Below the pieces are notes generated by a model that was not told the DNA's origin, did no database searches, and saw only the letters and a program-made list of their open reading frames with translations. A stretch of DNA of 54,330 nt, the filler included, from Jimgerdemannia flammicorona (lineage: Eukaryota), in assembly GCA_003990765.1 (NCBI GenBank). It is 3 parts of 3 records of this genome, joined end to end, with 100 filler letters (N's around TTAATTAATTAA, not from the genome) between each part and the next. Parts side by side here need not be neighbours in the genome. Positions count along the whole stretch, not along the records: positions 18,149 to 36,190 come from RBNJ01002321.1; 2 more parts are not named here. One strand, given 5' to 3'. Made by a program: the position numbers and the translations under genes. Below are positions 6,075-54,330 of the stretch, piece after piece; position 1 is the first letter of the stretch, and each line of letters opens with the position of its first letter.

Positions 6075-6477
6075 GTCACTGGAGACCTTTTAGCTATTAC
6101 ATTAATTACCCACATTGTTCTCATTATCTGAAGCAACCATTCTTACACGGTGGTTTGAATCAACATATATGCTTTACAACTCGGCAATCGCCGTGGACTG
6201 CAAGAAAGACGTGAAGGTACCCAAATAAGCTTTGCAAACCATACATATCTGAGGAATGACCGTTTCGTTCTTTTACTATCTCAGCTTCTCTACCAGCGAC
6301 CTGGGGAGATTCTCAAAAACAGACATCACCAGCTGCGACAACACCTCAAGCTCCCCTAGAGCTTACCCGTACCTTACATACACATCTTGATTTTTCCATA
6401 GTTTATCCACATGATTTGCTGCCGTATTTATTTCTATAAGACAATAACGAGAGACGCTTTCGTTCCAGGTAGAAAAC
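6075..6477 (+). repeat. Dispersed repeat, copy 1 (paralogous to 12056-12422)
   Basis: Shared blocks in the same order and orientation: gtcactgga..cttttagctat, tctgaagcaaccattcttacac.g.tgtttgaatcaa, caagaaagacgtgaaggt, aaaacagacatcaccagctgcgacaac, tttccatagttta, gccgtatttatttctata. Confidence 0.8.
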
Positions 6478-12055: not shown

Positions 12056-12422
12056 GTCACTGGAAATCTTTTAGCTATACGTTCATTGCCATATCATATA
12101 CCACATCTCTGAAGCAACCATTCTTACACAGTTGTTTGAATCAATAAATATTTTGTAATTCGGCAAACAACAATCAACTCCACCTCTTAGTTTACAAGAA
12201 AGACGTGAAGGTGGCCAAAGGAAGGTTGCAAACTCTACACATGCGAGGAATGGTCGTTTAGAGAGATTATCAAAACAGACATCACCAGCTGCGACAACGT
12301 CCCAAACCTCCCTAGAGTTTATCCGCACCTTGCGTATGTATTTTGATCTTTCCATAGTTTACCCGGCCGTATTTATTTCTATACGATAATGGCGACAGGC
12401 GTCTTCGTTGGAGATAGAAAAC
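12056..12422 (+). repeat. Dispersed repeat, copy 2 (paralogous to 6075-6477)
   Basis: Same conserved blocks as copy 1, with indels. Confidence 0.8.
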
Positions 12423-17077: not shown

Positions 17078-17345
17078 CAGGATGCCCTGGTGGTGGAAGA
17101 CAACAACCCGCAAACGGGAACCCTGTTTACTATCGCCGATACCGTTCCGATCTTATTTCCCCTTCCTTTGCCCAAACAAGTTCTGGTGGTGGAAGGACAA
17201 CAATCCGCAAACGGGAACCCTGTTTACTATCGCTGGTATCGTTCCGATCTTATTTCCCCTTCCTTTGCCCAAACAAGCAGGATGCCTTGGTGGTGGAAGA
17301 TAACAACCTGCAAACGGGGCACCCTGTTTAATATCGCTGGTACGT
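17078..17345 (+). repeat. Tandem repeat of a ~100-bp unit, about 2.6 copies
   Basis: Unit ggtggtggaaga.aacaa.c.gcaaacggg.accctgttta.tatcgc.g.tac.gttccgatcttatttccccttcctttgcccaaacaag starts near 17089, 17185 and 17289. Confidence 0.9.
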
Positions 17346-18048: not shown

Positions 18049-18148
18049 NNNNNNNNNNNNNNNNNNNNNNNNNNNNNNNNNNNNNNNNNNNNTTAATTAA
18101 TTAANNNNNNNNNNNNNNNNNNNNNNNNNNNNNNNNNNNNNNNNNNNN
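18049..18148. other. Assembly gap with artificial TTAATTAATTAA all-frame-stop linker
   Basis: N-run + TTAATTAATTAA + N-run, 100 nt in total; same structure at 36191-36290. Confidence 0.95.
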
Positions 18149-18379
18149 GCTAGCAAACTTGTATAAATAACCCAGTATCTTCGAGTGAATAAACCTCAGA
18201 TCGAAATAGTTCAAAGCAAAGAGATAGCAAAGGAACTAGTAAGCCTGCGGGCAGATACACTTCGAACTCACCCACCCTCCCCTGCAACTTCAAGAAGACT
18301 CTGCGAGAGTCAGAACAGTCAAGTTTTCAAGATACAGAAATCCGACGTACTTTCAAGAGTAAGCATCCGCTACGTTACA
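18149..18379 (+). mobile_element. 3' part of an LTR (solo or 3' LTR) related to the A/B family
   Basis: aacttgtataaataacccag...gagtgaataaacctcag resembles 28014-28058 (TATA box plus AATAAA). It ends in GTTACA at 18379 with no PBS after it, and retains CpGs. Confidence 0.6.
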
Positions 18380-27441: not shown

Positions 27442-27665
27442 ATTTCTGAGCTAATTAAAAGATTTTTCCACAAAAATCCATTGACTGTCAGATATATCTT
27501 AGCTGAACTGTTAAGTTATCAATGATAACTCCAAAGGCAATGTTGTTTTTGAGATTTTATTTATTTAATTACAAAATAGTATTTTATATAATTAAAAATA
27601 ATATTTTAATTAATAAAATTTAATATAATAGTTTATTTAATTTTAATATATTACAATATATATAT

Positions 27666-29083
27666 TGTAACAGACCAAAACGTACCACCTGAATTATAAC
27701 TTAGCCAAATGATGTGAACAATTAGCATACTTACTCAGCATGATGTGACTTCCAGTGTATCATAGTTACTCATGCCCACCATACTTATAATTAGCCAAGA
27801 CACCAGATCAGGATTGTTTATCTATATCCTGAGGACACACTCATGTCTTGTGGACACACTCATGTCCTGTGGACACACTCATGTCCTGCAGACACACTCA
27901 TGTCCTGCAGACACACTCATGTTCTGTGGACACACCTGTACCCAGAGGACACACCCAAATATTACCGAAGATAGCAAATCTATAATTAGCCACATAGCAA
28001 CCAGATAGCAACCAACTTATATAAATTACCCCAGAGATGAGAGTGAATAAAACCTCAGTCTGAAATACAAACACCAAAGAAGCCTCTAAAGATTAAGCAT
28101 TGGTCCCCTTTCCACTCCAGTCTACTTTCTGATACAAAGCTGATTTTGCTGCCAAGTTCAAGGAAGAACTTCGCCACCTTTGGAACTATTGGTTTGCTTG
28201 CCAGATAAGTCTGAAGATTCTGCCTTTTCTGCTACATTAGAAAGCCACCTTGCCCAAGCCAGTTTCTGATACAACTTCACAGTGATCTGTCATATAAATG
28301 AAGCCAGTCTTTAACATAACTTTGCCAAGAAACCCTTTCCAAGCCACCATCCCATTTCCCAGTTAGAGCCTGCCAATTCAGAAAGAATCCGCATCACCTG
28401 CCATTTTTAAGTTTCTACTGTATTCCCAGTTGAAGCTGCTGATTCAGGAAGAGTCCGCGCAACCCGAGTTAAATTCTCAGTTGAAGTCACTGTTTCCTAG
28501 AAGCCCGCCGATTCAGGAAGAATCCGTGTCATCTGCCGTTTTCAAGTTATCTGCATTCCCAGAAGAGCCATCCGAGTTATTCATTATTCTCAGTGAGTCT
28601 AGGAAGAATCCACACCATACAATTCCCAGTGAGCCAAATCAAGTTATCCACCGAATTATCAGAACATCTGCATAAGGAACCTGCTGCACTACATAGAGAT
28701 TGTCACACTATACAAGATCATCATGCAGAAATCACATAAGGAGAACCGCTAAATTGCCAGACCATCACACACAAGGAGATCATTGCGCTACACAGAGATC
28801 ACCCATTACTCAAGAAGGAAGCTGCTCATGCTACACATAAATTGTGCCATTCCCAGTTGACCCAAGAAGAAAAAGACATACAAATCGCCGCTACACCTAG
28901 AGAACTGTCCCAATAAGGAAATTGCTTGCAGATATCCAGCTTTGACTCTTATACCACTAAACCCCAAGGATCTCAGGAATCTTAGAACATTTTGTTACTT
29001 TTTGACAAAGTAACTGGGGGCTCAAGCCAAACTACATCAACCTCCAACCTTGTAATTTGCCTCCATTGAGCTGGCATGTTACA
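27666..29083 (+). repeat. 5' LTR of copy A (~1.42 kb)
   Basis: Starts TGTAACA and ends TGTTACA. Collinear with 45219-46452 and 54030-54330 (minus strand). TATA-like TATATAAA near 28018 and AATAAA at 28046. Confidence 0.9.
27833..27935 (+). repeat. 19-bp palindromic tandem repeat in U3 (GGACA-cactca-TGTCC), about 5.5 copies
   Basis: Read directly, upstream of the TATA box. Confidence 0.9.
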
Positions 29084-29085
29084 TT

Positions 29086-29104
29086 TGGGGGCTCAACTGG
29101 GAAT
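29086..29104 (+). promoter_or_regulatory. Primer binding site, probably tRNA-Pro
   Basis: TGGGGGCTCAACTGGGAAT 2 nt after the LTR end resembles the tRNA-Pro PBS TGGGGGCTCGTCCGGGAT. The copy B equivalent is at ~54006-54027 on the minus strand. Confidence 0.75.
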
Positions 29105-32100
29105 ATTTCAAAATCAACATGACTTTTCAGCTCACAAGAACCCACAGTTAAACTGGATACATTTGATACAACACCAACCTCTGCCACCATAGGAGAACCA
29201 GTCATCACTAGCATTTAGACAAGAAGAGAAGTAATTACCTCAAGGCTTGCCAACTACCCAGCATCAGAAGGATCTCAACTAGAAGCAGGAGGCAGTACAG
29301 CCTGAAATCCCCAACCAGATCAACCAGATCTACCAGATCAACCAGACAATATAGGCAGCCCTGCTAGAATTTTTAGAGAACTTGTACAAGAACTAGAAGA
29401 CTTTATTACCCGGACCCAATACTTTACAGCCAGACACCCCACACCAGCCCCACCAATCTCACCAATAGAACCCCTACCACAACCTCTTGCAGAACTAGAA
29501 GTAGCTCTTACAAGAATACCTAGGCCTATTCTACCTCACCCAAGGACCAGAACACCATTTTCAAGATACCCAAGCACCGCCATCTCCAGTGACAGTTCAG
29601 AAAGTGAATCAGAATCAGAATCTGAACCTGAACCAGAGTCAGGAGAAAGTGATGACGAAATGGCCACCTCATTGCCAATCTTTGCAGGATATCCAGAGGA
29701 GGACCCCAGAGAATTCCTTGATGGAATTGAAGGAATTGCAGCCTTGAGAAATCTTTCAGATGAAAGAAAGATCACTATCTACAAAGCCCAGCTTAGAGAA
29801 CCAGCTAGAGGAATTTTCTACCGAACAGCAAACAACCCAGATTCAGAACTAGCAAGACAGATACAAGCAGCACTCTCTGATGAGCTAGAATATGAGGCCA
29901 TGGTCCACTGGCTCATCGAAAAGTATGCAGGAAATGAAACCTGCCACAAGGCTTAGAAATCTATCATGGAAATGAAGATGAACCTTGGAGAATCACCCAG
30001 AGCCTTCTTCATAAGAATCTAGAAGAGAATGCATTCTGCTGGGTTTAATGCCACCAATCAAGACATCATAGGTCCAATGACCTTCATGAATGGAATTCCT
30101 CTGAATATTGCCCAGCATGTCTGCACCTTAGGCATCAGAAGGTCTGAAGAGCAGGTAGATGCAGCCCAAGGATTCTTTGATATCAGGCAAGAAACCACCT
30201 GGAGTGATCATGACAAAAAGGAAGATAAAGAAGATATCCTGGTCAAGGCCCTGCAAGGACTCCTTCAAGGACAAGAAAGATCCAAAGAAAGGAGGCCAGC
30301 CAAGGAAGGAAAGAAGGATAGAAGCGAAATTCAAGATCTTAGCTCCAAGTTAGACCGATTGGTTGGTCAGATTGAAAAACTCACTACACGCGAAAATCAG
30401 AGCTACCAAGACAACAGAGGATACCCACCACAGAGGAGCCAAGGTTATCCATCAAGAGATAATAGGAATTACCAGTAAGAAGAAAGAAGGTACCCTGTCC
30501 GAGACAGAGCCCAAGTCCAATGCTTCCACTGTGGACAATTCAGACACTATGCCACTGAATGCGACAACAAAAGAAGTGACTGAAGGGACTCAGAACCACC
30601 AAACCGAAGGAATGACACTCAGTACAAGAAGACTGAAGTCCATCCTATTGAAGATTTCGAGGAAGCAAGCAACAGTGAAGACTACAGTGACCTAGACTTG
30701 TATCCTATCAAGGTTACCACCTGAAAGACAGTTTACCCAGCAGAAAAAAGAAAGAGACCTATGGAAAGACCATCCAGGAACATCAGCAGAAGAATTATTC
30801 AAGAAGAAGATGAAGAGCATAAGGAGGAATAAGTTGAAACACCTCCCCGAACCCCCTCACCCTTTGTGCCCAAGACAAATGAATTACCACCCAAAGATAA
30901 AGAAATGGAACAAGAAGAATGGGAACCTGCTGCTCCAAAGTCTAAGAAAAAGTATACTCCAAAGACCATGCCTAGAGATATTTACAATGAAGCCTGGCAG
31001 AAGATTCAAGAAGCCAAGATGGAAGTTCCTCTCCTGCAGTTCTTGCAATTGACACCAGCTGGAGTTTGAAACAAATTGCTGAGAACTACAAGGTCTAGCA
31101 CTGGCCAAGTTCCAATCCCACAGCAAGAACCAGCTCCTATTCCTGTTCAAGCAGCTGAAAGACATGTCAGCACCTATTTACATGGAGACATTGGAGGACA
31201 AAAAGCAAAAATCCTCATAGATACAGGAGCAGCTGTCTGTATCATTGCCAAACAATTCTTGGACACCCTCCAATGGCCCATTGATGGACCATCCAACCTC
31301 AGCATCATAGTAGCAGATGGAGCCTGAACTCAACTCCTTGGAGAAGTACAAAATATCACCATTGGAGCCATTGCAGGAGAAGCCAAAGGATGCCCTACAT
31401 GTCTCAAGAGACACAAGTGTTCCAAGCACTTCTCCAAGATCATGGGAACAAGGAAATCGCCTGGCACAGCCTGCCCAGAATGCAGAAGAAAGAAGAAGAA
31501 ATGCAGACATGTTCTGAAAACACCTGCAACCGAAGCTGCAGAAGTACAAGCAATTTGGGGTCAAGAATCATCTGAGGAAGAAGAAACTTCTGACCAAGAA
31601 GTTCCTGAACAAGAAGTGCCTGATGAAGAAGAAGTCCCCAAACTCATCCCCTGGGATGACCCTTGCTGGATACCACCTGAAGATAATGACCCCTGGAATA
31701 CAGAGGAAGGACCCAGTACCATCACCATAATCCCCAAGAAAGAAACCCACCAAGAGAAAGCTTTCCGGCTAGGAAGATGTCCACATCAAATGGTCTTCCA
31801 TTCTCCCTGAGACTATTGCTATCAGTATCATCTATTGGACCAACAAGAAAGACAGAGACCCCAGAGACCAGAACCCCCAACTACTCTTGCACAATCTACC
31901 ACCTTTCAGGAAGTCACCACAAGGTTACAAAGTCGATTTAGAGGACAAGGCTTCTTTACCCGAACAGAAATATACCCCTTGTCTACCCTTCCCCCAACCT
32001 ATGATCAAGATGAGTACCGATTCCCAAAACAACAAGAGATAAATAGCTGGGAACATCATTTCCAAGCAATGGGATATTGCAACCATGGGAGACACCCTGA

Positions 32101-32489
32101 TTGCCGAGACTGCAGACATCAGAAGATTCATCTCAGTCATGATGTTGCAGTGCACACCTTGAAGAAAGGAGATAACTGAAGCCAGATTCGAAAAAGTCAG
32201 ATTCAAAGAAGGCAGACCAAGAAGCCTGGAAAAAGAACTCTCAAGATCTATGATTTGGGAGAAGATATCCTAACTCTCATCAGACATGCAACCTGCCAAG
32301 GATGGGCAGAAGATGCCACCAACTTCATGGAAGCCCTTGACCCTATAGGAAGAAGGGGAATCAATTACCTTCGAGATCCCTCTACTGGAGCCAGATGGCC
32401 ACACCTCAACCTTAGAGCTTAGAGGCTTTCTGCCAGTGGAGCTTCAGCCTTAAGAAAGCCCGAACTCAGCAAGGATATTGCCCAGTATG

Positions 32490-32885
32490 CCCTACTGCAC
32501 CCCAAGGCCAAACCCCTGACCAAAGCCCACCCAGAGGATGTAGGATATCATCTTCACAGCCTGGAGGATGAATCTATCAAGCCTGGAAAAACCTTCATAG
32601 TCAGAACCAGATTAGCCATGCAGCCACCTCAAGGAGCTTATATTCAACTGACCTCAAGGTCCAGACTTGCAAGACAAGGAATAACTGTAGAAGGAGGAAC
32701 CATTGACCCTGGATATACAGGCGAAATCAAGGTTATCCTACACAACAGCAGTGCAGAATAGCACCAAATCATTAGAGGACAGAAGATTGCCCAAGTAGTC
32801 TTCATGAAGGTCAAGACCCCACAGTTACAGGAAGTTTCTGAACTAACTGAAGGAACAAGACAAGCCAAGAGATTTGGAAGTTCAG
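32490..32885 (+). pseudogene. Trimeric dUTPase domain inside the pol of copy A, between protease and RT
   Basis: All five motifs are recognisable: EDVGYHL, LTSRSRLA, GGTIDPGYTGEIKV, GQKIAQ, TRQAKRFGSS. Confidence 0.9.
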
Positions 32886-35769
32886 ATAGGAAAGAGGTAC
32901 ATCTCCTTCAAGTCAACCACCTCAAGAGGAATGTTCCCCAGCAAGTATACCGGCAGCCAGTCAGACTACACAAGAATCTCATCCTGGAGCCTGGAGAACA
33001 AACCACATTCGAAATCTTTGTACCACCCGATCCCAGAAACCTTTTCTTCAAGCCGAAGGAAGATATTCCACACCTGGATATAGAGGGACACACATTCTCT
33101 GACAAGATGAACCCAGTACACTCCCGAGGAACCAACCAAAGTTGGGAGACCATCATCTTGCCAAAAGGAACCATCATAGGACATCTGGTGCCTTTTCTCA
33201 ACCAAACTCATAGGGAAGTTTATGAACTAAACCTATCGGGAAATAGCAAAAGGTCCCAGAAGAAAGGAAAGACCCCTCTGTGACCTAGGAGACAGTGAAG
33301 CCTTCCACCAATATCAGAGAAGAATTAACATCTCAACAATAGCAATAACTTGTAGAACTTCTCAACAAATATCAAGATATCTTCACTACCAATTATGGCA
33401 ACCTGCCATACAACCCATCATATCACCACAGTATAAATACAGGAAGTGCAACACCCATCTGGCAGAAACCCTATAGAATACCCCATCATTTGAAAACATT
33501 CGAAAAGGAGCATATCCAAGAACTCTTAGACAATGGAGTCATCCGACCCTCTACCAGCCCCTGGGCCAGCCCTATACTTATTGTACCAAAGAAAGGAGAA
33601 TGGAGACTCTGTGTGGATTACAGAAAACTCAATTCAGTCACTGAAAAGGATGCTTATCCTTTGCTCAGAATCAATGACCTTTTGGACCAGCTATAAGATG
33701 CCAGATATTTCAGCAGTATGGACCTCTTCGCAGGATTCCATGAGATCCCCATAGTCCTTAAGGACATTCAAAAGACAGCCTTCCTTGCTCTAGGAAAACT
33801 ATTTGAATACCTCTGAATGCTCTTCGGACTTTGCAATGCACCCCCCACCTTCCAGAGGATGATGAATTCAGTCTATGCCCCTTTGATCCACCACTATCTG
33901 ATTGTATACATGGATGATTCCAACATCTATTCAGCAAATTTCGAAGAACACCTGCACCACCTAGAGGAATTCTTCAAGCTCACTCACAAGAATTACTTGA
34001 GATTGAATGTAAGGAAATGCTACTTTGGAAAACAGAAACTCAAATTCCTTGGATTCATGGTCTCAAAAGAAGGAACTCATACAGACCCAAAGAAAACTGA
34101 GAAGATCAACAATTGGCCAGTACCCAAGACTCCAAAGGAAATACTATCATTCTTGATACTAGTATCCTACTACAGAAGGTTTATCAAAGATTTTGCCCAA
34201 ATCGCTGCCCCAATCTGAATCCTTCTCAAGAAAGGAATACCATTCAAATGGACAGAATCACAGAAAAAAGCCTTCAGAGAACTCAAGAACCACATGACTA
34301 CAGCACCAATCCTTGTGTGCCCCAATCTACAGAAGCCATTCATCTTGTATATAGATGCCTCCAAAGATGGCCTAGGAGCAGTTCTAGCCCAAGAAGGACC
34401 AGACCAACAGCACCATATGATAGCTTATGCAAGCAGAGCTACCAATCAGCAGCAAATGAACTATGGTAGCACTAAACTGGAATGCCTTGCAGTTATATGG
34501 GTGGTCACCCTGTTCAAGCATTACCTCATCGGAAAAAGGTTCACCCTGATCACAGACCATGCAGCCCTCAAATGGCTATTCAACTGCAAGGAACCTACCA
34601 GAATTCTAGCCCAATGGATCCTTATCCTTCAGGATTACAAAATCACCATCATTCACAAAGCAGGGAAAGCTCACAACAATGTTGATGTACTTTCCCACCA
34701 ACCCCAATGAATCAGAAGAAGGGTGTCCCGAGGAACTACACCCTAAAGGAAGCTCCTCAGACCATCAAGGAACAAGAAAATCTCATCTGACAAGAACATC
34801 AGAAAGCCCACCAAGGACAGACATGCATAGAAGACAAGATTCGAAAACAACATCAACATTGGCCCCACCTCAGAACCCAAGTCCGAGACATCATTCAGAA
34901 GTGTGACATCTGTCAGAAGTATCAAGGAAAGAAGAACTATCAAGCCCCTCTACAACTGATCCCTGCACCTACTCACATCTTTCAAAGATGGGGAGTAGAT
35001 GTAATTGGACCTCTACCAGTTACACCAAGAAGAAACAAATACATTCTTGTATTTGTAGAACATCTGACCAAGTGGCCCAAGGCTTTCTCAATGGAAATCG
35101 CAGATGCCTTAACCATTGTAGGCCTCCTCCATGGACTTATACTCAGATATGGACCTCCAGAAGAACTCATCTCTGACCAAGGCACAGAATTCATCAACAA
35201 CATAATTACAAGTTATGCCCAAATTCACAAGATCCACCTCAAAAAGACCACATCATACTACCCCCAGACCAATGGTATGACAGAAAGGATGAACCAGACC
35301 ATCAAGAAAGGACTTGCCTGAGTCAACTCTACTAATTAGGACCTCTGCTTACCTGAGATCCTATGAGAAATTTGGAATACCCCTGCTACATCCACCAAAC
35401 AAAAGCCATTCGAAATGATGTTTGCCAAGAGAACCAGAACTGCTGACCATGAGAATCTCAGAAACCTCCTCAAGAAGGCAGAACAGTTACGAAATCAAGT
35501 CCAAGGACAGATTATCAAAGCCCAGGAAAGACAAAAGAAGTACTATAACCAAAAACAGAAGGATCAAGAGATCAAGATTGGAGATCAAGTCCTAGTTTGG
35601 AGAAGCATGATTGAGACAAACTTTGCTGCCAAACTGGAACCAAAATGGGAAGGACCTTATCTTGTATACAACATCAGAGGAACCAGCATCTATTTAAGAA
35701 GCATAGATGGATGAACCCTGAGAACACTAGTACACATCAATTGTCTCAAGATATACTTCCCCTCACACC

Positions 35770-36190
35770 ATGAATCAGAGAATTGACAACTGCCTCCAAA
35801 CTCTTATTCTCAGTTCCCTCCAAGCTCTATCAGTTCCCCTGCCTCAGTTCCGGGAACCCAATGGAATATATCTTCAGAGAATCTGAGTTCATCAAGAGAA
35901 CCTCACCTTGGCCGAGAGACTACTCCAGGTCCACCAGCTATAGGTATATTATGCAATTGGAGAACAATTGCAGAATCTCTCTCTCCTGGACCTAGCCTAT
36001 GTCCGAAACACCACTGGCCTGAACAGAAGGAATACTACTGCCGCAGACAGACTATATACAATATATAAACGAAATCCTTCTGCCTTAATCCAGGCCCAGT
36101 TTTCCCTGAATGACCTCCAAAGGATGACACAGCCCACCTACCTCAGCATTATTCACCAAGTGGAGATCCTATTTCCTGAGGAAGAAGAAG
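35770..36190 (+). pseudogene. Accessory ORF downstream of integrase in copy A, unknown function
   Basis: ATG at 35770 overlaps the end of pol. MNQRIDNCLQTLILSS...VYYAIGEQLQN...RNTTGLNRRNTTAADRLYTIYKRNP...EILFPEEEE, with two transition-type stops. Conserved in copy B. Confidence 0.7.
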
Positions 36191-36290
36191 NNNNNNNNNN
36201 NNNNNNNNNNNNNNNNNNNNNNNNNNNNNNNNNNTTAATTAATTAANNNNNNNNNNNNNNNNNNNNNNNNNNNNNNNNNNNNNNNNNNNN
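36191..36290. other. Assembly gap with artificial TTAATTAATTAA linker
   Basis: Same structure as 18049-18148. Confidence 0.95.
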
Positions 36291-40610: not shown

Positions 40611-40749
40611 AATTCAGTAGGTCTGTAGATAAGTTGATTGGCCTTGTGGAATATTTAATACCTTTCAAAATAATAAAAAAGAAAAAAAAAACCTAAGAAC
40701 TCGGCCCAGAGTTTGCGGTCTAAGTGGAGTGGGGTTGGTGGTAGAGAGA

Positions 40750-41240
40750 GCACACAATATTTGTGGCCCTCAGTCAGCAGCAAGGGGCAGCCCCAAGCTG
40801 CTGGTGCCTTGGTCGGTGGGCAGGTCAGTGGGTCGGTGGGCAGGTCAGTGGGTTGATGGGTGGGTTGGTGGGTTGGTGGGCGGGTTGGTGGGTCAGTAGA
40901 GGGAGTGTGCAAAATTTGTGGCCCTCCGCTGGCAGCAAGGGGCAGCCCCAAGCCACAAGTGTCTGGGTCAGAGGGGTAGGTAGAGAGAGCATGCAAAATT
41001 TGCAGCCCTCTGCCAGCAGCAAGGGGCAGCCCTAAGCTGTCAGCACCCAGGTCAGTGGGCAGGGTTGGTTGGCAGGCATGGGGTCGGTGGAGGGAGCATG
41101 CAAAATTTGTGGCCCTCCACTAGTAACAAGGGGCAGCCCTAAGCCACAAGTGTCCAGGATGGGTGGGGCAGATGGAGAGAGTACACAAAATTTGTGGCTC
41201 TCCACTAGTGGCATAGGGACAGCCCTAAGCTGCCATGGAG
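40750..41240 (+). repeat. Array of five ~45-bp units downstream of the hAT transposase, probably subterminal repeats
   Basis: AAATTTGTGGCCCTC..CTGGCAGCAAGGGGCAGCCC.AAGC-like units near 40757, 40911, 40995, 41102 and 41188, separated by GGTGG-rich spacers. Confidence 0.8.
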
Positions 41241-45218: not shown

Positions 45219-46452
45219 TGTAATGTGCCTGGCTCAATGGAGGCAAATTACAAGGTTGGAGGTTGATGTAGTTTGGCTTGAGCCCCCAGTTACTTTGTTA
45301 AAAAGTAACAAAATGTTCTAAGATTCCTAAGGTCCTTGGTGTTTAGTAGTATAATAGTCAAAGCTGGGTATCAGCAAGTGATTTGTATGTTGATTTCCTA
45401 ATTAGGATGGTTCTAGATGTAGCAGTAATTTGTATGAATGGGTTTTCTTCTTGGGTCAACTGGGAATACTACAATTTGTGTAGCAAGGCAATTTCCAAAA
45501 GTATACAATTTCTGGGTAATGGCTTTGATGTGACAATCACTGTATAGTATGATGATCTTGGTACAATGATCTCTGTATAGTGCAGTGGGTTCCTTATATG
45601 GATATTCTGATAATTTGGCAGATAACTCAATTTGGCTCACTGGAAATTGTATGACATGGATTCTTCTGTAATGGGTTCACTGGGAACAATAAATAACTTG
45701 GATGTTGCAGGTTCAGCTTTGACTGGAAATATTACTCAGATGGCACAGATCTTTCTGAGAATGTGGATAACTTGAAAATGGCGGATGATATGGATTCTTC
45801 TGAATCGGCAGGCTTCTGGAAAATAGCTTGGATTCTTGGCAAGTTATGTCTAGACTGGCTTCATTTGTATGAATGGATCACTGTGAAGTTGCATCAAGAG
45901 ACTGACTTGTGGTAAGGAAGGTGGGCTCTCTGGGAATATAGCAGAAAGAGTGAAAATCTTCAGGCTTATCTGGCAAGTGAACCAATAATGTGGCTTATTC
46001 CTTAAGTGGCAGGTTTCTCAAAAGGCAGCAAAGTTCTTCCTTGAACTTGGTAGTAAATCTTCAAGCTTTGTATTAGAAAGTGGACCAGAGTGGGAATAAG
46101 GGGACCGATGCTTAATCTTTAGAGGCTTCTTTGGTTTGCACTTCAATTCAGACTGAGGTTTATTCACTCTTATCTCTGGGGTAATTTATACAAGTTGGTT
46201 GCTATCTGGTTGCTATGTGGCTAACTATAGGTTTGCTATCTATGGCAAGTTGTACAGGTCTAGCACAAGTGTGCAGGTCCAGCACAGGTATGCAGGTCCT
46301 GCACAGATATATCTTATCTGGTAGTCTGGCTATTTATACAGTTTCTGCAACAATGATTGCTGGTTACTATGCTGTGTATTCACATCATCTGGCTAATTGT
46401 TTGTGTCATCTGGCTAAGGTATAATTCAGGTAGTACATCCTGGTTTGTCACA
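45219..46452 (-). repeat. 3' LTR of copy B (~1.23 kb)
   Basis: On the minus strand it starts TGTGACAAACC at 46452 and ends CATTACA at 45219; aligns to 27666-29083. Confidence 0.9.
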
Positions 46453-46492
46453 TCAGCCTCCACTAAAGGATGGTCTATCCTCAGACTATCCT

Positions 46493-53200: not shown

Positions 53201-54029
53201 CACATACTTTTCAATGAGCCAGTGAACCATGGCCTCATATTCTAGCTCATCAGACATTGCTGCTTGTATCTGTCTTGCTAGTTCTGAATCTTGGTTATTT
53301 GCTGTTTGATGGAAAATTCCTCTGACTGGTTCTCTGAGCTGAGCTTTGTAGATGGCAATTTTTCTTTCATCTGAGAGATTTCTCAAGGCTGCAATTCCTT
53401 CAATTCCATCAAGGAATTCTCTGGGGTCTTCTTCCAGGTATCCTGCAAAGGTTGATAATGAGGTGGCCATTTTATTGTCACTTTCTTCTGATTCTGGTAC
53501 AAGTTCAGATTCTGATTCTGATTTACTTTCTGAACTGTCACTAGAGATGGGGATGCTTAGGTATCCTGAGGATGGTATTCTGGATCTTGGACAAAGTGAA
53601 ATAGGCCTAGGTATTCTTATAGGAGCTATTTCTGACTCAGTAAAGAGTTGTGGTAAAGGTTCTATTGGTGAGATTGGTGGGATTGGTGTGGGGTGTCTGG
53701 CTGTAAGATCTCAGGTTCACGTGATAAGATCTTCTAGTTCTTGTACAAGTTCTCCAAAATCTCTAGCAGAGCTGCCTATATTGTCTGGTTGATCTGGTTG
53801 GGGATTTCAGGCTGTACTGCCTCCTGCTTCTGGTTGGGATCCTTCTGATGCTGAGTAGTTAGCAAGTCTTGAGGTAATTACTTCTCTTCCTGTCCAAATG
53901 CTAGTGATGACTAGTTCTTCTATAGTGACAGAGGTTGGTGTTGTATTAAATATATCCAGTTTGACTGTGGGTTCTTGTGAGCTGAAAAGTCACATCAATT
54001 TGAAATTGATTCCTAGTTGAGCCTCCAAA

Positions 54030-54330
54030 TATAACATACCTAGCTCAATGGAGGAAAATTACAAGATTGGGGGTTGATGTAGTTTGGCTTAAGCCCTCAG
54101 TTACTTTGTCAAAAAGCAACAAAATGTTCTAAGATTCCTGAGGTCCTTGGTGTTTAGTGGTATAATAGTCAAAGCTGGATATCAGTAAGCAAATTGTGTG
54201 TCGATTTCCTAATTAGGATGGTTCTAGGTGTAGCAGTGATTTGTGTGAATGGTTTCCTTCTTGGGTCAACTGGGAATATCACAATTTGTGTAGTGAGGCA
54301 ATTTCCAAAAGTATGTGATTTCTGGGTGAT
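54030..54330 (-). repeat. 3' end of the 5' LTR of copy B; runs off the window
   Basis: Matches 45219-45520; the terminal CA is mutated to TA; followed by the PBS. Confidence 0.9.

What the first reader, a model, noticed from the sequence alone, without database searches (positions are those of the whole stretch)
28356..29104. Unusually long U5 seeded with copies of the PBS complement (tRNA 3'-end mimics)
Seen: the PBS reverse complement is ATTCCCAGTTGAGCCCCCA. The LTR contains ATTCCCAGTTGA exactly at 28422-28433 and 28849-28860, ATTCCCAGTGAGCC at 28622, TTCCCAGTTAGAGCC at 28356, and weaker variants near 28474, 28556 and 28587. Copy B keeps the 28849 motif (GGGTCAACTGGGAATA on the + strand near 45453 and 54263). 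The AATAAA-to-LTR-end distance is ~1 kb, against ~190 nt in the related LTR at 18149-18379. Established: Tf1-type elements self-prime by folding the transcript 5' end onto the PBS. Inference: these units could occlude the PBS as an RNA switch, offer alternative self-priming, or be fossils of repeated primer capture.
Basis: partly seen in the sequence, partly recalled or inferred. Interest (0 to 1): 0.7.

Follow-up and report, generated by a model that had tools for sequence, protein, structure and literature searches.

The report
Primer-tRNA mimics repeated inside a retrotransposon LTR
A decayed fungal-type Ty3/gypsy retrotransposon carries several same-sense copies of the 3' end of its own primer tRNA inside its long terminal repeat; they are real and can mask the primer binding site, but most are units of an unstable tandem repeat and any function is unproven.

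Summary
The LTR of element A (27666-29083) has 7 same-sense copies of ATTCCCAGTTGAGCC, the complement of PBS nt 5-19. Shuffles give 0.42 copies, and there are none in antisense. The copies are not independent. Six are units of one decayed, copy-number-variable tandem array (28356-28635). Only the copy at 28849 is kept in all three LTRs of the window.

The element is a degenerate gag-PR-dUTPase-RT-RH-IN Ty3/gypsy element, with best named RT relatives in Rhizophagus and Rhizopus. Its PBS is of the tRNA type. It starts TGG two bases after the LTR's CA, and it is shared by three gag lineages but only over 18 nt. Tf1-like self-priming is therefore unlikely.

In copy A the 28849 motif is predicted to pair with the PBS 3' part (p 0.79). 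It masks the PBS more than 60 of 60 shuffles do. A sister subfamily, one member with an open 986-codon gag-PR frame, lacks the motif, and its PBS is not masked above chance. Array motifs diverge about as fast as their flanks.

Best reading (0.4): captured primer mimics acting as a subfamily-specific anti-PBS. A neutral relic (0.33) is nearly as likely. The "U5" label is untested because no TSS, poly(A) site or host tRNA could be obtained.

The parts
27666..29083 (+). 5' LTR of element A (TGTAAC...GTTACA), 1,418 nt
   Evidence: Alignment with both LTRs of copy B. The terminal inverted repeat was read.
27827..27935 (+). 19-bp tandem repeat, 5.7 copies, upstream of the TATA box (U3-type repeat)
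   Evidence: Tandem Repeats Finder, 91% matches. Absent from copy B.
28018..28051 (+). Conserved promoter and poly(A) core: TATATAAAT (28018-28026) and AATAAA (28046-28051)
   Evidence: Near-identical in A and B3. Shared with the LTR fragment at 18149-18379. Highest depth bin of this half of the LTR in run X1. Its function is inferred.
28356..28635 (+). Decayed tandem array of six units of about 31-82 nt. Each unit starts with a version of ATTCCCAGTTGAGCC, at 28356, 28422, 28473, 28555, 28586 and 28622.
   Evidence: In run X1 depth is very low here and contigs skip 40-323 nt.
28849..28863 (+). ATTCCCAGTTGACCC, the copy conserved in the A/B subfamily. It is complementary to PBS nt 8-19.
   Evidence: Identical in A, B3 and B5 within a 21-nt identical block. 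Pairs with the PBS at p 0.67-0.79.
28994..29014 (+). Hairpin GTTACTTT / AAAGTAAC with loop TTGAC
   Evidence: Predicted in all 4 sequences. One pair varies between A-U and G-U.
29015..29028 (+). Direct partial copy of the PBS (TGGGGGCTCAA + GCC), 69-70 nt before the LTR end
   Evidence: Exact TGGGGGCTCAA in A, B3, L006 and L018; B5 carries two substitutions.
29041..29047 (+). CCTCCAA, predicted partner of the spacer plus PBS nt 1-6
   Evidence: Pair probabilities 0.65-0.89. The same stem is predicted in L006 and L018. Run X1 reads C at 29043.
29066..29072 (+). TTGAGCT (TTGAGCC in B3, L006 and L018), a 7-nt copy of the tRNA acceptor 3' strand
   Evidence: Run X1 reads C at 29072.
29086..29103 (+). 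18-nt primer binding site TGGGGGCTCAACTGGGAA, after a TT spacer
29306..36190 (+). Degenerate internal region: gag (CCHC), protease, dUTPase, RT, RNase H and integrase. It is cut at 36190 by an N-linker.
45219..46452 (-). 3' LTR of copy B. The conserved motif lies at 45453-45467, with decayed array units around it.
46453..46464 (-). Polypurine-type tract of copy B, AGTGGAGGCTGA, directly before the 3' LTR
   Evidence: A loose end in run X2 reads CAGTGGGGGCTGA.
54009..54027 (-). PBS of copy B, with 2 substitutions (TGGAGGCTCAACTAGGAAT)
54030..54330 (-). End of the 5' LTR of copy B, cut by the window end. The motif lies at 54263-54277.

Best explanation
The motifs are same-sense copies of nt 58-72 of the tRNA that primes this element. 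That tRNA looks like a tRNA-Pro. The copies sit in the transcribed part of the LTR of a tRNA-primed, dUTPase-bearing Ty3/gypsy retrotransposon.

One founding copy was probably templated, either by the packaged primer tRNA or by the element's own PBS. It then spread by tandem duplication into a copy-number-variable array. Because the copies are complementary to the PBS, they act in the genomic RNA as anti-PBS sequences.

The copy nearest the PBS (28849), together with a short stem nearer the LTR end (29041-29047), sequesters the whole PBS in a long-range U5-PBS helix. Gag/nucleocapsid would have to open this helix before the tRNA can anneal. This would be a subfamily-specific brake or timer on initiation of reverse transcription.

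Shown: the anatomy, the enrichment, the orientation, conservation within the subfamily, and the predicted pairing. Inferred: the templated origin, transcription of this region, and any effect on replication.
For: - Enrichment and orientation: 7 sense copies against 0.42 expected, and 0 antisense.
- Conservation: the 28849 copy is identical in 3 of 3 LTRs, within a 21-nt identical block. The LTRs are otherwise about 80% (A against B) and 89% (B3 against B5) alike.
- None of the 40 best-supported differences listed for soil run X1 falls in 28849-28860 or 29086-29103, at summed bin depths of about 160-1,000. A further 125 differences were not shown.
- Predicted pairing: PBS nt 8-19 pair with 28849-28860 at p 0.67-0.79, and the spacer plus PBS nt 1-6 pair with 29041-29047 at 0.65-0.89. 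The 306-nt fold shows the same pairing. Masking by upstream partners is 0.93 against 0.60 +/- 0.14, and 0 of 60 shuffles reach it.
- The stem at 29041-29047 also pairs with the TT spacer, which the tRNA does not cover. This fits RNA-RNA pairing within the element.
- The PBS is of the tRNA type. It starts TGG two bases after CA. It is identical over 18 nt in three gag lineages, and position 19 reads T, T, G, G and A in A, L006, L018, L003 and L004.
- All 7 copies in A and both copies in B have A at tRNA position 58 and vary at position 57. This is the point where reverse transcriptase stops on primer tRNAs (established knowledge).
- Precedent: HIV-1 masks its primer activation signal in an extended PBS stem (PMC1865047, passages read). 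The HTLV-1 tRNA-Pro PBS sits in a 10-bp hairpin (PMC11251516, passages read).
Against: - The sister subfamily lacks any copy of 8 nt or more in the 349 nt (L006) and 272 nt (L018) upstream of the LTR end. L018 has an open 986-codon gag-PR frame, so the motif is not needed by the family.
- Its PBS is not masked above chance. L018 gives 0.40 against 0.31, with 22 of 60 shuffles reaching it. L006 gives 0.45 against 0.46, with 37 of 60.
- The more distant L003 and L004 have no significant copy in 350 and 190 nt. Shuffles reach their best scores 40 of 300 and 126 of 300 times.
- Array motifs are not clearly better conserved than their flanks between A and B3: 59 of 74 positions against 331 of 462.
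- In run X1 the array bins have summed depth 3-52, against 160-1,000 for the flanks, and contigs skip 40-323 nt there.
- There is no covariation. 0 of 39 predicted pairs show a double change among 4 sequences.
- High pairing in copy A follows almost by construction from an exact 12-mer complement.
- Inference: a sense anti-PBS would also lie in plus-strand strong-stop DNA, where it could compete in the second strand transfer.
- No TSS, poly(A) site or host tRNA was available.
Confidence: 0.4

Rival explanations
1. Neutral relic. One templated copy of the primer's 3' end, or an inverted copy of the PBS, landed in the LTR and was multiplied by replication or reverse-transcription slippage. The array and the 28849 copy have no role and are simply tolerated.
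For: - The array is hypervariable in run X1: depth 3-52, with joints skipping 40-323 nt.
- Array units are shorter or missing in B3.
- Motif columns are only marginally better conserved than other columns, 80% against 72%.
- The motif is absent from the sister subfamily, including the open-frame L018.
- The same LTR holds another tandem repeat, 27827-27935, so slippage is common here.
Against: - The 28849 copy is exact in 3 of 3 LTRs despite 11-20% divergence.
- It is not among the listed majority differences in run X1.
- All copies keep one orientation.
- A strong intramolecular partner for the PBS is unlikely to have no effect on priming (inference).
Confidence: 0.33
2. Clamp like the HIV-1 primer activation signal (PAS). 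Once the tRNA's 3' strand is on the PBS, the U5 mimic pairs with the tRNA strands that were set free, namely the acceptor 5' strand and the T-stem 5' strand. This stabilises or activates the initiation complex.
For: - The motif has the sequence of tRNA nt 58-72, so it is complementary to those strands by construction.
- The HIV-1 PAS is a U5 motif that pairs with the T-arm and is masked until needed (PMC1865047, passages read).
Against: - The tRNA sequence is unknown.
- The same sequence feature predicts both PBS masking and PAS action, so nothing done here separates them.
- The motif is absent from the sister subfamily.
Confidence: 0.1
3. Tf1/Tj1-type self-priming. The transcript folds, the motif anneals to the PBS, RNase H cuts after it, and the RNA's own 3'-OH primes minus-strand DNA.
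For: - There is a 12-nt exact complement to the PBS in the LTR.
- Self-priming is widespread in fungi (PMC4600332 and PMC6317226, passages read).
Against: - The PBS has tRNA hallmarks and is shared over 18 nt by elements with unrelated or 26%-identical gag.
- The complement covers PBS nt 8-19, so a primer end would sit 7 nt plus the 2-nt spacer away from the LTR's CA.
- The conserved TATA box lies about 830 nt upstream of the motif.
- No chromodomain was found at E 0.05 or better in 6 of 6 reading frames of two copies.
- L018 lacks the motif.
Confidence: 0.05
4. Repeated independent capture of the primer tRNA, with each motif a separate fossil.
For: - The copies are in sense orientation.
- The 5' edge lies at position 58 in every copy.
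Against: - Array units share flanking sequence (GATTCAGGAAGAATCCGC, AAGTTATC). Segments 28367-28413 and 28502-28548 are 83% alike, so these are duplicates of one unit.
- The shared edge is then inherited rather than independent.
Confidence: 0.05

Closest known systems
Tf1 / Tj1 self-primed LTR retrotransposons (fission yeasts) and predicted self-primers of the Tcn1 and TAR lineages
   Same: The LTR contains a stretch of about 11-12 nt that is exactly complementary to the PBS. The host is probably a fungus.
   Different: In those elements the complement is the first bases of the transcript, and the PBS matches no tRNA. Here the PBS is tRNA-like and shared between lineages. The complement lies far from the predicted start and does not reach the LTR-proximal PBS bases. 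No chromodomain was found (PMC4600332 and PMC6317226, passages read).
Retroviral PBS-domain structures: HIV-1 extended PBS stem with primer activation signal, and the HTLV-1 tRNA-Pro PBS hairpin
   Same: U5 sequences pair with or around the PBS and gate tRNA-primed initiation. The motif here has the sequence of the tRNA's own 3' strand, so it could also pair with the tRNA's freed 5' strands (T-stem and acceptor), much as the HIV-1 PAS pairs with the T-arm.
   Different: The retroviral elements are single, short (8-10 nt), close to the PBS and experimentally tested. Here there is a 12-15-mer 234 nt upstream plus an array of decaying copies. It is restricted to one subfamily and nothing is tested (PMC1865047 and PMC11251516, passages read).
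Variable tandem repeats inside LTRs and untranslated regions of LTR retrotransposons
   Same: Short units, variable copy number between insertions, and rapid decay.
   Different: The unit here begins with a 15-nt copy of the element's primer. I did not find this described in my searches. One search returned 4 papers, none on retroelements. Searches returned listings only, apart from the passages cited.
Cassandra TRIM elements carrying 5S rRNA sequence in their LTRs
   Same: A cellular small-RNA sequence fixed inside an LTR.
   Different: Cassandra holds a whole Pol III gene. Here there are only 15 nt of a tRNA 3' end and no Rfam match.

Membership tests
tRNA-primed LTR retrotransposon (canonical PBS) | The PBS begins TGG within a few bases of the LTR's terminal CA | tested here: met
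   GTTACA-TT-TGGGGG in A, L006, L018 and L003. ACA-AG-TGGGGG in L004.
tRNA-primed LTR retrotransposon (canonical PBS) | 18-nt complementarity to the 3' end of a host tRNA | not testable with these tools
   No genome is held. There are 0 tRNA genes in the window, in L001 and in 21 metagenome loci. Resemblance to tRNA-Pro primers (TGGGGGCTC...) is recalled.
tRNA-primed LTR retrotransposon (canonical PBS) | Identity between lineages stops after nt 18 (reverse transcriptase stop at m1A58) | tested here: met
   Position 19 reads T (A), T (L006), G (L018), G (L003) and A (L004). Run X1 reads G in 17 contigs. The 18 bases themselves were fixed by the search pattern.
tRNA-primed LTR retrotransposon (canonical PBS) | The same PBS is used by unrelated elements of the host group | tested here: met
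   L003 gag is 26% identical to A's gag. L004 gag has no tblastn match at 1e-4, a weak Retrotrans_gag hit and a CCHC motif.
Tf1/sushi-type self-priming element | The first ~11 nt of the transcript are complementary to the PBS | not testable with these tools
   No RNA run is listed. The only conserved TATA box lies about 830 nt upstream of the conserved motif.
Tf1/sushi-type self-priming element | The PBS has no tRNA match and is element-specific | tested here: not met
   The PBS is tRNA-like and identical in three gag lineages.
Tf1/sushi-type self-priming element | The complement covers the PBS bases next to the LTR, so that the primer's 3' end abuts U5 | tested here: not met
   The motif pairs with PBS nt 8-19 only.
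Tf1/sushi-type self-priming element | Chromodomain at the integrase C-terminus (chromovirus clade) | tested here: inconclusive
   No chromodomain at E 0.05 or better in 6 of 6 frames of A and B. Both copies are degenerate.
PBS-masking U5 structure / primer activation signal | A U5 sequence is predicted to pair with the PBS more than chance allows | tested here: inconclusive
   Met in A: 0.93 against 0.60, with 0 of 60 shuffles reaching it. Not met in L018 (22 of 60) or L006 (37 of 60).
PBS-masking U5 structure / primer activation signal | Compensatory changes keep the pairing | tested here: inconclusive
   0 of 39 pairs show double changes in 4 sequences. There are a few one-sided G-U changes.
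Ty3/gypsy (Metaviridae) with dUTPase | Order gag(CCHC)-PR-dUTPase-RT-RNase H-IN | tested here: met
   Pfam hits: dUTPase 1.3e-26, RVT_1 1.5e-28, RT_RNaseH 1.1e-35, rve 1.7e-9. The frame map is. dUTPase between PR and RT is described in fungi (PMC2864245, passages read).

The most novel reading that the evidence does not exclude
The LTR carries a variable-number array of mimics of the primer tRNA's 3' end. The array tunes initiation of reverse transcription. More or better copies would mean stronger masking of the PBS, which could for example shield it from host 3'-tRNA fragments until Gag opens it. Alternatively, the copies could hold the displaced strands of the annealed tRNA. This would be a copy-number-adjustable cis regulator of priming that has not been described for any retroelement.
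Probability: 0.12. Interest if true: 0.65.

Novelty: new variant of a known kind. Interest (0 to 1): 0.35.

Why it matters
Control of primer annealing is well studied in a few retroviruses and hardly at all in LTR retrotransposons. If the mimics work, they would show that an element can evolve a strong anti-PBS by copying its own primer. They would also give a natural series of copies with 0 to 7 or more mimics for testing how PBS accessibility sets retrotransposition rate. If they are neutral, the locus is still a clear example of a templated fragment of a primer tRNA, or of the PBS, fixed and amplified inside an LTR.

Tried and rejected
- Own genome: none is held, so there was no host tRNA scan.
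- tRNA genes: none in the window, in L001 or in 21 metagenome loci.
- Sequencing runs: no RNA holder is listed. Only one soil-metagenome study appeared, and its best run holds 0.14 of the sampled words. Laying its contigs gave depth and variants but no transcript ends.
- gag as a query: no homolog at E 1e-5 or better, so no gag-based locus search was made.
- Viral contigs: the RT query gave 0 confirmed relatives. The RT alignment gave 1 distant locus, L002. The PBS 16-mer gave 1 unrelated locus, L001. The LTR 22-mer gave 0.
- Genome contigs: the LTR 22-mer gave 0.
- Metagenome scan with the 18-nt PBS: 21 loci, about what chance predicts. 4 are LTR elements. Most of the other 17 carry the 18-mer inside a long ORF, and none shows retroelement features.
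- Inverted duplication of PBS plus leader: complementarity does not extend beyond 13 nt. The score of 26 equals the best of 200 shuffles.
- Rfam: 0 matches at E 1 or better in 27600-29400.
- Coding repeats: the longest open frames in the LTR are 102 codons (A) and 87 codons (B3). They are not joined to gag, and TGA closes the gag frame downstream of the PBS in L018 and L006.
- Earlier notes of this scan: nothing was found.
- One script timed out because of a faulty shuffle routine. It was rerun with plain shuffles.
- Literal sequence search of papers: 4 hits, all unrelated primers.
Full report
**What the window is.** The window is three pieces joined by N...TTAATTAATTAA...N linkers, at 18049-18148 and 36191-36290. 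Neighbourhood across those points is therefore not genomic. No tRNA gene is present and no whole genome is held.

Element A lies on the + strand. Its 5' LTR is 27666-29083 (TGTAAC...GTTACA), followed by a TT spacer and the PBS at 29086. A stop-ridden internal region follows, with gag (CCHC), protease, dUTPase, RT, RNase H and integrase. It is cut at 36190 by the linker, so its 3' LTR is missing.

Copy B lies on the - strand in the third piece. Its 3' LTR is 46452-45219 and its internal region runs to 54001. Its PBS is 54027-54009 and carries two substitutions. Its 5' LTR is cut by the window end. The A and B LTRs are about 80% alike, and B's two LTRs are 89% alike. Both insertions are therefore old.

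The best named RT relatives are from Rhizophagus, Dentiscutata and Rhizopus at 45-48% identity. Unnamed JGI and Logan proteins reach 65-79%. The only public run holding part of the LTR is labelled soil metagenome. A fungal host is likely but not shown. dUTPase between PR and RT has been described in fungal Ty3/gypsy elements (PMC2864245, passages read).

**The observation.** Scanning the A LTR with ATTCCCAGTTGAGCC gives 7 hits at local score 8 or more: 28356, 28422, 28473, 28555, 28586, 28622 and 28849. The mean in 200 shuffles is 0.42 and the maximum is 3. The reverse strand has none. B's 3' LTR has 6 hits against 0.33. Across the whole window, loose matches are not enriched, so the signal belongs to these LTRs.

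The distance from AATAAA to the LTR end is 1,032 nt, against 186 nt in the fragment at 18149-18379. That fragment shares only a 54-nt TATA/AATAAA core with A.

**The copies are not independent.** Hits 1 to 6 each begin a unit of about 31-82 nt. The units share further blocks. For example, 28367-28413 is 83% identical to 28502-28548, and 28441-28457 is 94% identical to 28510-28526 (alignment). This is a decayed tandem array. B3 has fewer and differently decayed units.

In run X1, 651 contigs were laid on the stretch. Summed depth is 443-655 over the promoter core and 160-1,028 over the last 270 nt of the LTR. Over the array (28330-28812) it is only 3-52. Contigs there skip 40-323 nt, and the bridging letters are again motif variants such as TTTCCCAGT. 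The array is thus variable in copy number between insertions.

Between A and B3, motif columns are 59 of 74 identical and other columns 331 of 462. That is no clear sign of constraint.

Most motif variants differ from ATTCCCAG by C-to-T changes. This fits the general decay of these copies: 112 of 130 classified differences between the window and X1 are transitions.

**The conserved copy.** ATTCCCAGTTGACCC at 28849 sits in a 21-nt block that is identical in A, B3 and B5, with poorly alignable sequence just upstream. None of the 40 best-supported X1 differences lies in it or in PBS nt 1-18, although 125 further differences were not shown.

It is not family-wide. A metagenome scan with the 18-nt PBS returned 21 loci. 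L006 and L018 belong to a sister subfamily, with gag 65-68% identical to A. They share the last ~110 nt of the LTR almost exactly. Yet they have no tRNA-like match of 8 nt or more in the 349 and 272 nt available upstream.

What they share with A and B is:
- a hairpin (28994-29014 in A);
- a direct 11-nt copy of the PBS start (29015-29025);
- TTGAGCC 19 nt before the LTR end;
- a C-rich stretch (29041-29047 in A) that pairs with the spacer and the PBS start.

L018 has an uninterrupted 986-codon gag-PR frame. An apparently functional relative therefore does without the motif.

**Kind of PBS.**
- The PBS begins TGG two bases after the LTR's CA.
- Its complement has the shape of a tRNA 3' end: T-stem CCCAG, acceptor TTGAGCC, discriminator C, then CCA. 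That reading, and the likeness to the tRNA-Pro primers of MLV and HTLV-1, is from memory. PMC11251516 (passages read) confirms only that the HTLV-1 PBS matches the 3' 18 nt of tRNA-Pro.
- Four LTR elements of three gag lineages carry the identical 18-mer: L006 and L018; L003, with 26% gag identity; and L004, with no detectable gag similarity, a weak Retrotrans_gag hit and a CCHC motif.
- The base after it varies: T, T, G, G and A. In X1, 17 contigs read G at 29104.

An 18-nt site shared by unrelated elements and ending where reverse transcriptase stops on m1A58 is the signature of tRNA priming. The tRNA itself could not be found.

**Self-priming.** Tf1 and Tj1 use the first bases of their own transcript, complementary to the PBS, as primer. 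Such elements lack a tRNA-type PBS (PMC4600332 and PMC6317226, passages read). Four points argue against that here.
- The PBS is tRNA-like.
- The motif covers PBS nt 8-19. It leaves seven PBS bases and the spacer between a would-be primer end and the LTR.
- The only conserved TATA box (28018) is about 830 nt upstream.
- No chromodomain was detected in either copy.

I give self-priming 0.05.

**Predicted RNA behaviour.** The RNA 28050-29300 was folded, assuming a start just after the TATA/AATAAA core. The 28849 motif pairs with PBS nt 8-19 at p 0.67-0.79. The copies at 28622 and 28356 are minor alternatives (0.12 and 0.08). Bases 29041-29047 pair with the spacer and PBS nt 1-6 at 0.65-0.89. The 306-nt fold gives the same helix, although its overall energy is unremarkable (z -1.3).

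Mean pairing of the PBS with upstream partners is 0.93, against 0.60 +/- 0.14 when the upstream part is shuffled, and 0 of 60 shuffles reach it. In L018 the figures are 0.40 against 0.31 (22 of 60). In L006 they are 0.45 against 0.46 (37 of 60).

The alignment fold of A, B5, L006 and L018 gives 39 pairs with no double compensatory change. Masking of the whole PBS is therefore a property of the A/B subfamily. It follows largely by construction from the 12-mer.

**Origin.** A 15-mer match cannot be chance in 1.4 kb, so it was templated. Complementarity to the PBS region does not extend beyond 13 nt. All copies have A at tRNA position 58 and differ at position 57.

This fits a reverse transcriptase that switched onto the packaged primer tRNA during minus-strand synthesis and stopped at m1A58. 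That would place tRNA-sense sequence on the plus strand. It equally fits a short inverted copy of the element's own PBS. The shared edge is inherited through duplication, so it counts only once. This step is inference.

**Verdict.** The pattern is real, strongly non-random and one-sided in orientation. Its multiplicity is explained by tandem duplication.
- 0.40: the copies act as anti-PBS sequences. The 28849 copy is a subfamily-specific mask of the primer site, in the manner of the HIV-1 extended PBS stem or the HTLV-1 PBS hairpin (PMC1865047 and PMC11251516, passages read).
- 0.33: they are neutral relics. This is nearly as likely.
- 0.10: a primer-activation-signal-like clamp on the tRNA.
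- 0.05: repeated independent capture.
- 0.05: self-priming.

The 'U5' label, the tRNA identity and any effect on replication remain untested. My literature searches turned up no description of primer-mimic arrays in LTRs, but they were narrow.

Noticed in passing
window 18049-18148 and 36191-36290: Runs of N flank the string TTAATTAATTAA. This looks like an all-frame stop linker used to join separate contigs. The window is therefore three unlinked pieces, and element A ends at a contig break, not at a genomic deletion.
   Followed up: partly
window 28994-29028; also L006 258-293 and L018 181-216: This is the best-conserved part of the LTR. It is an 8-bp hairpin (one pair varies A-U/G-U) followed directly by an 11-nt direct copy of the PBS start (TGGGGGCTCAA). 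The 8-mer TGGGGGCT also forms the core of the polypurine-type tract before the 3' LTR, seen in a run X2 loose end and, in mutated form, in copy B at 46464-46453. Its role is unknown. It could be a second tRNA or plus-strand primer site, or a partner of TTGAGCC at 29066.
   Followed up: partly
L018 319-825, L006 393-899, window 29306-29659: The gag frame is open for 169 codons (118 in A) before the first ATG, starting right after a TGA 24 nt downstream of the PBS. An in-frame CTG with A at -3 and G at +4 lies near its start (A; L018). The conserved leader motif TTTTCAG also resembles a splice acceptor. The L018/L006 differences are 2, 2 and 3 by codon position before the ATG, against 1, 1 and 18 after it. 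Coding of the extension is therefore not shown.
   Followed up: partly
window 32423-32900: A dUTPase domain (Pfam E 1.3e-26) lies between protease and RT. This layout is known from some fungal Ty3/gypsy elements.
   Followed up: yes
window 27640-29700 against run X1: 112 of 130 classified differences are transitions. The window copy mostly has T or A where the metagenome copies have C or G (T>C 42, A>G 27). This suggests deamination-type decay of the copy, by methylation or a RIP-like process.
   Followed up: no
window 27827-27935: A 19-bp unit (TCCTGTGGACACACTCATG) is repeated 5.7 times upstream of the TATA box in A and is absent from copy B. It is an enhancer-like U3 repeat, or a second product of slippage.
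   Followed up: no
L003 and L004: Two further LTR-element lineages in metagenomes use the identical 18-nt PBS. L003 gag is 26% identical to A's gag, and L004 gag is unrelated. Neither has a significant primer mimic in the 350 and 190 nt of LTR available.
   Followed up: yes
window 40740-41170; 6201-6408 with 12195-12364; 17099-17277: Other repeats lie in the window. There are four 85-nt G+C-rich units at 40740-41170. There is a pair of direct repeats about 5.96-5.99 kb apart, possibly LTRs of another element. There is also an 82-nt tandem duplication at 17099-17277.
   Followed up: no
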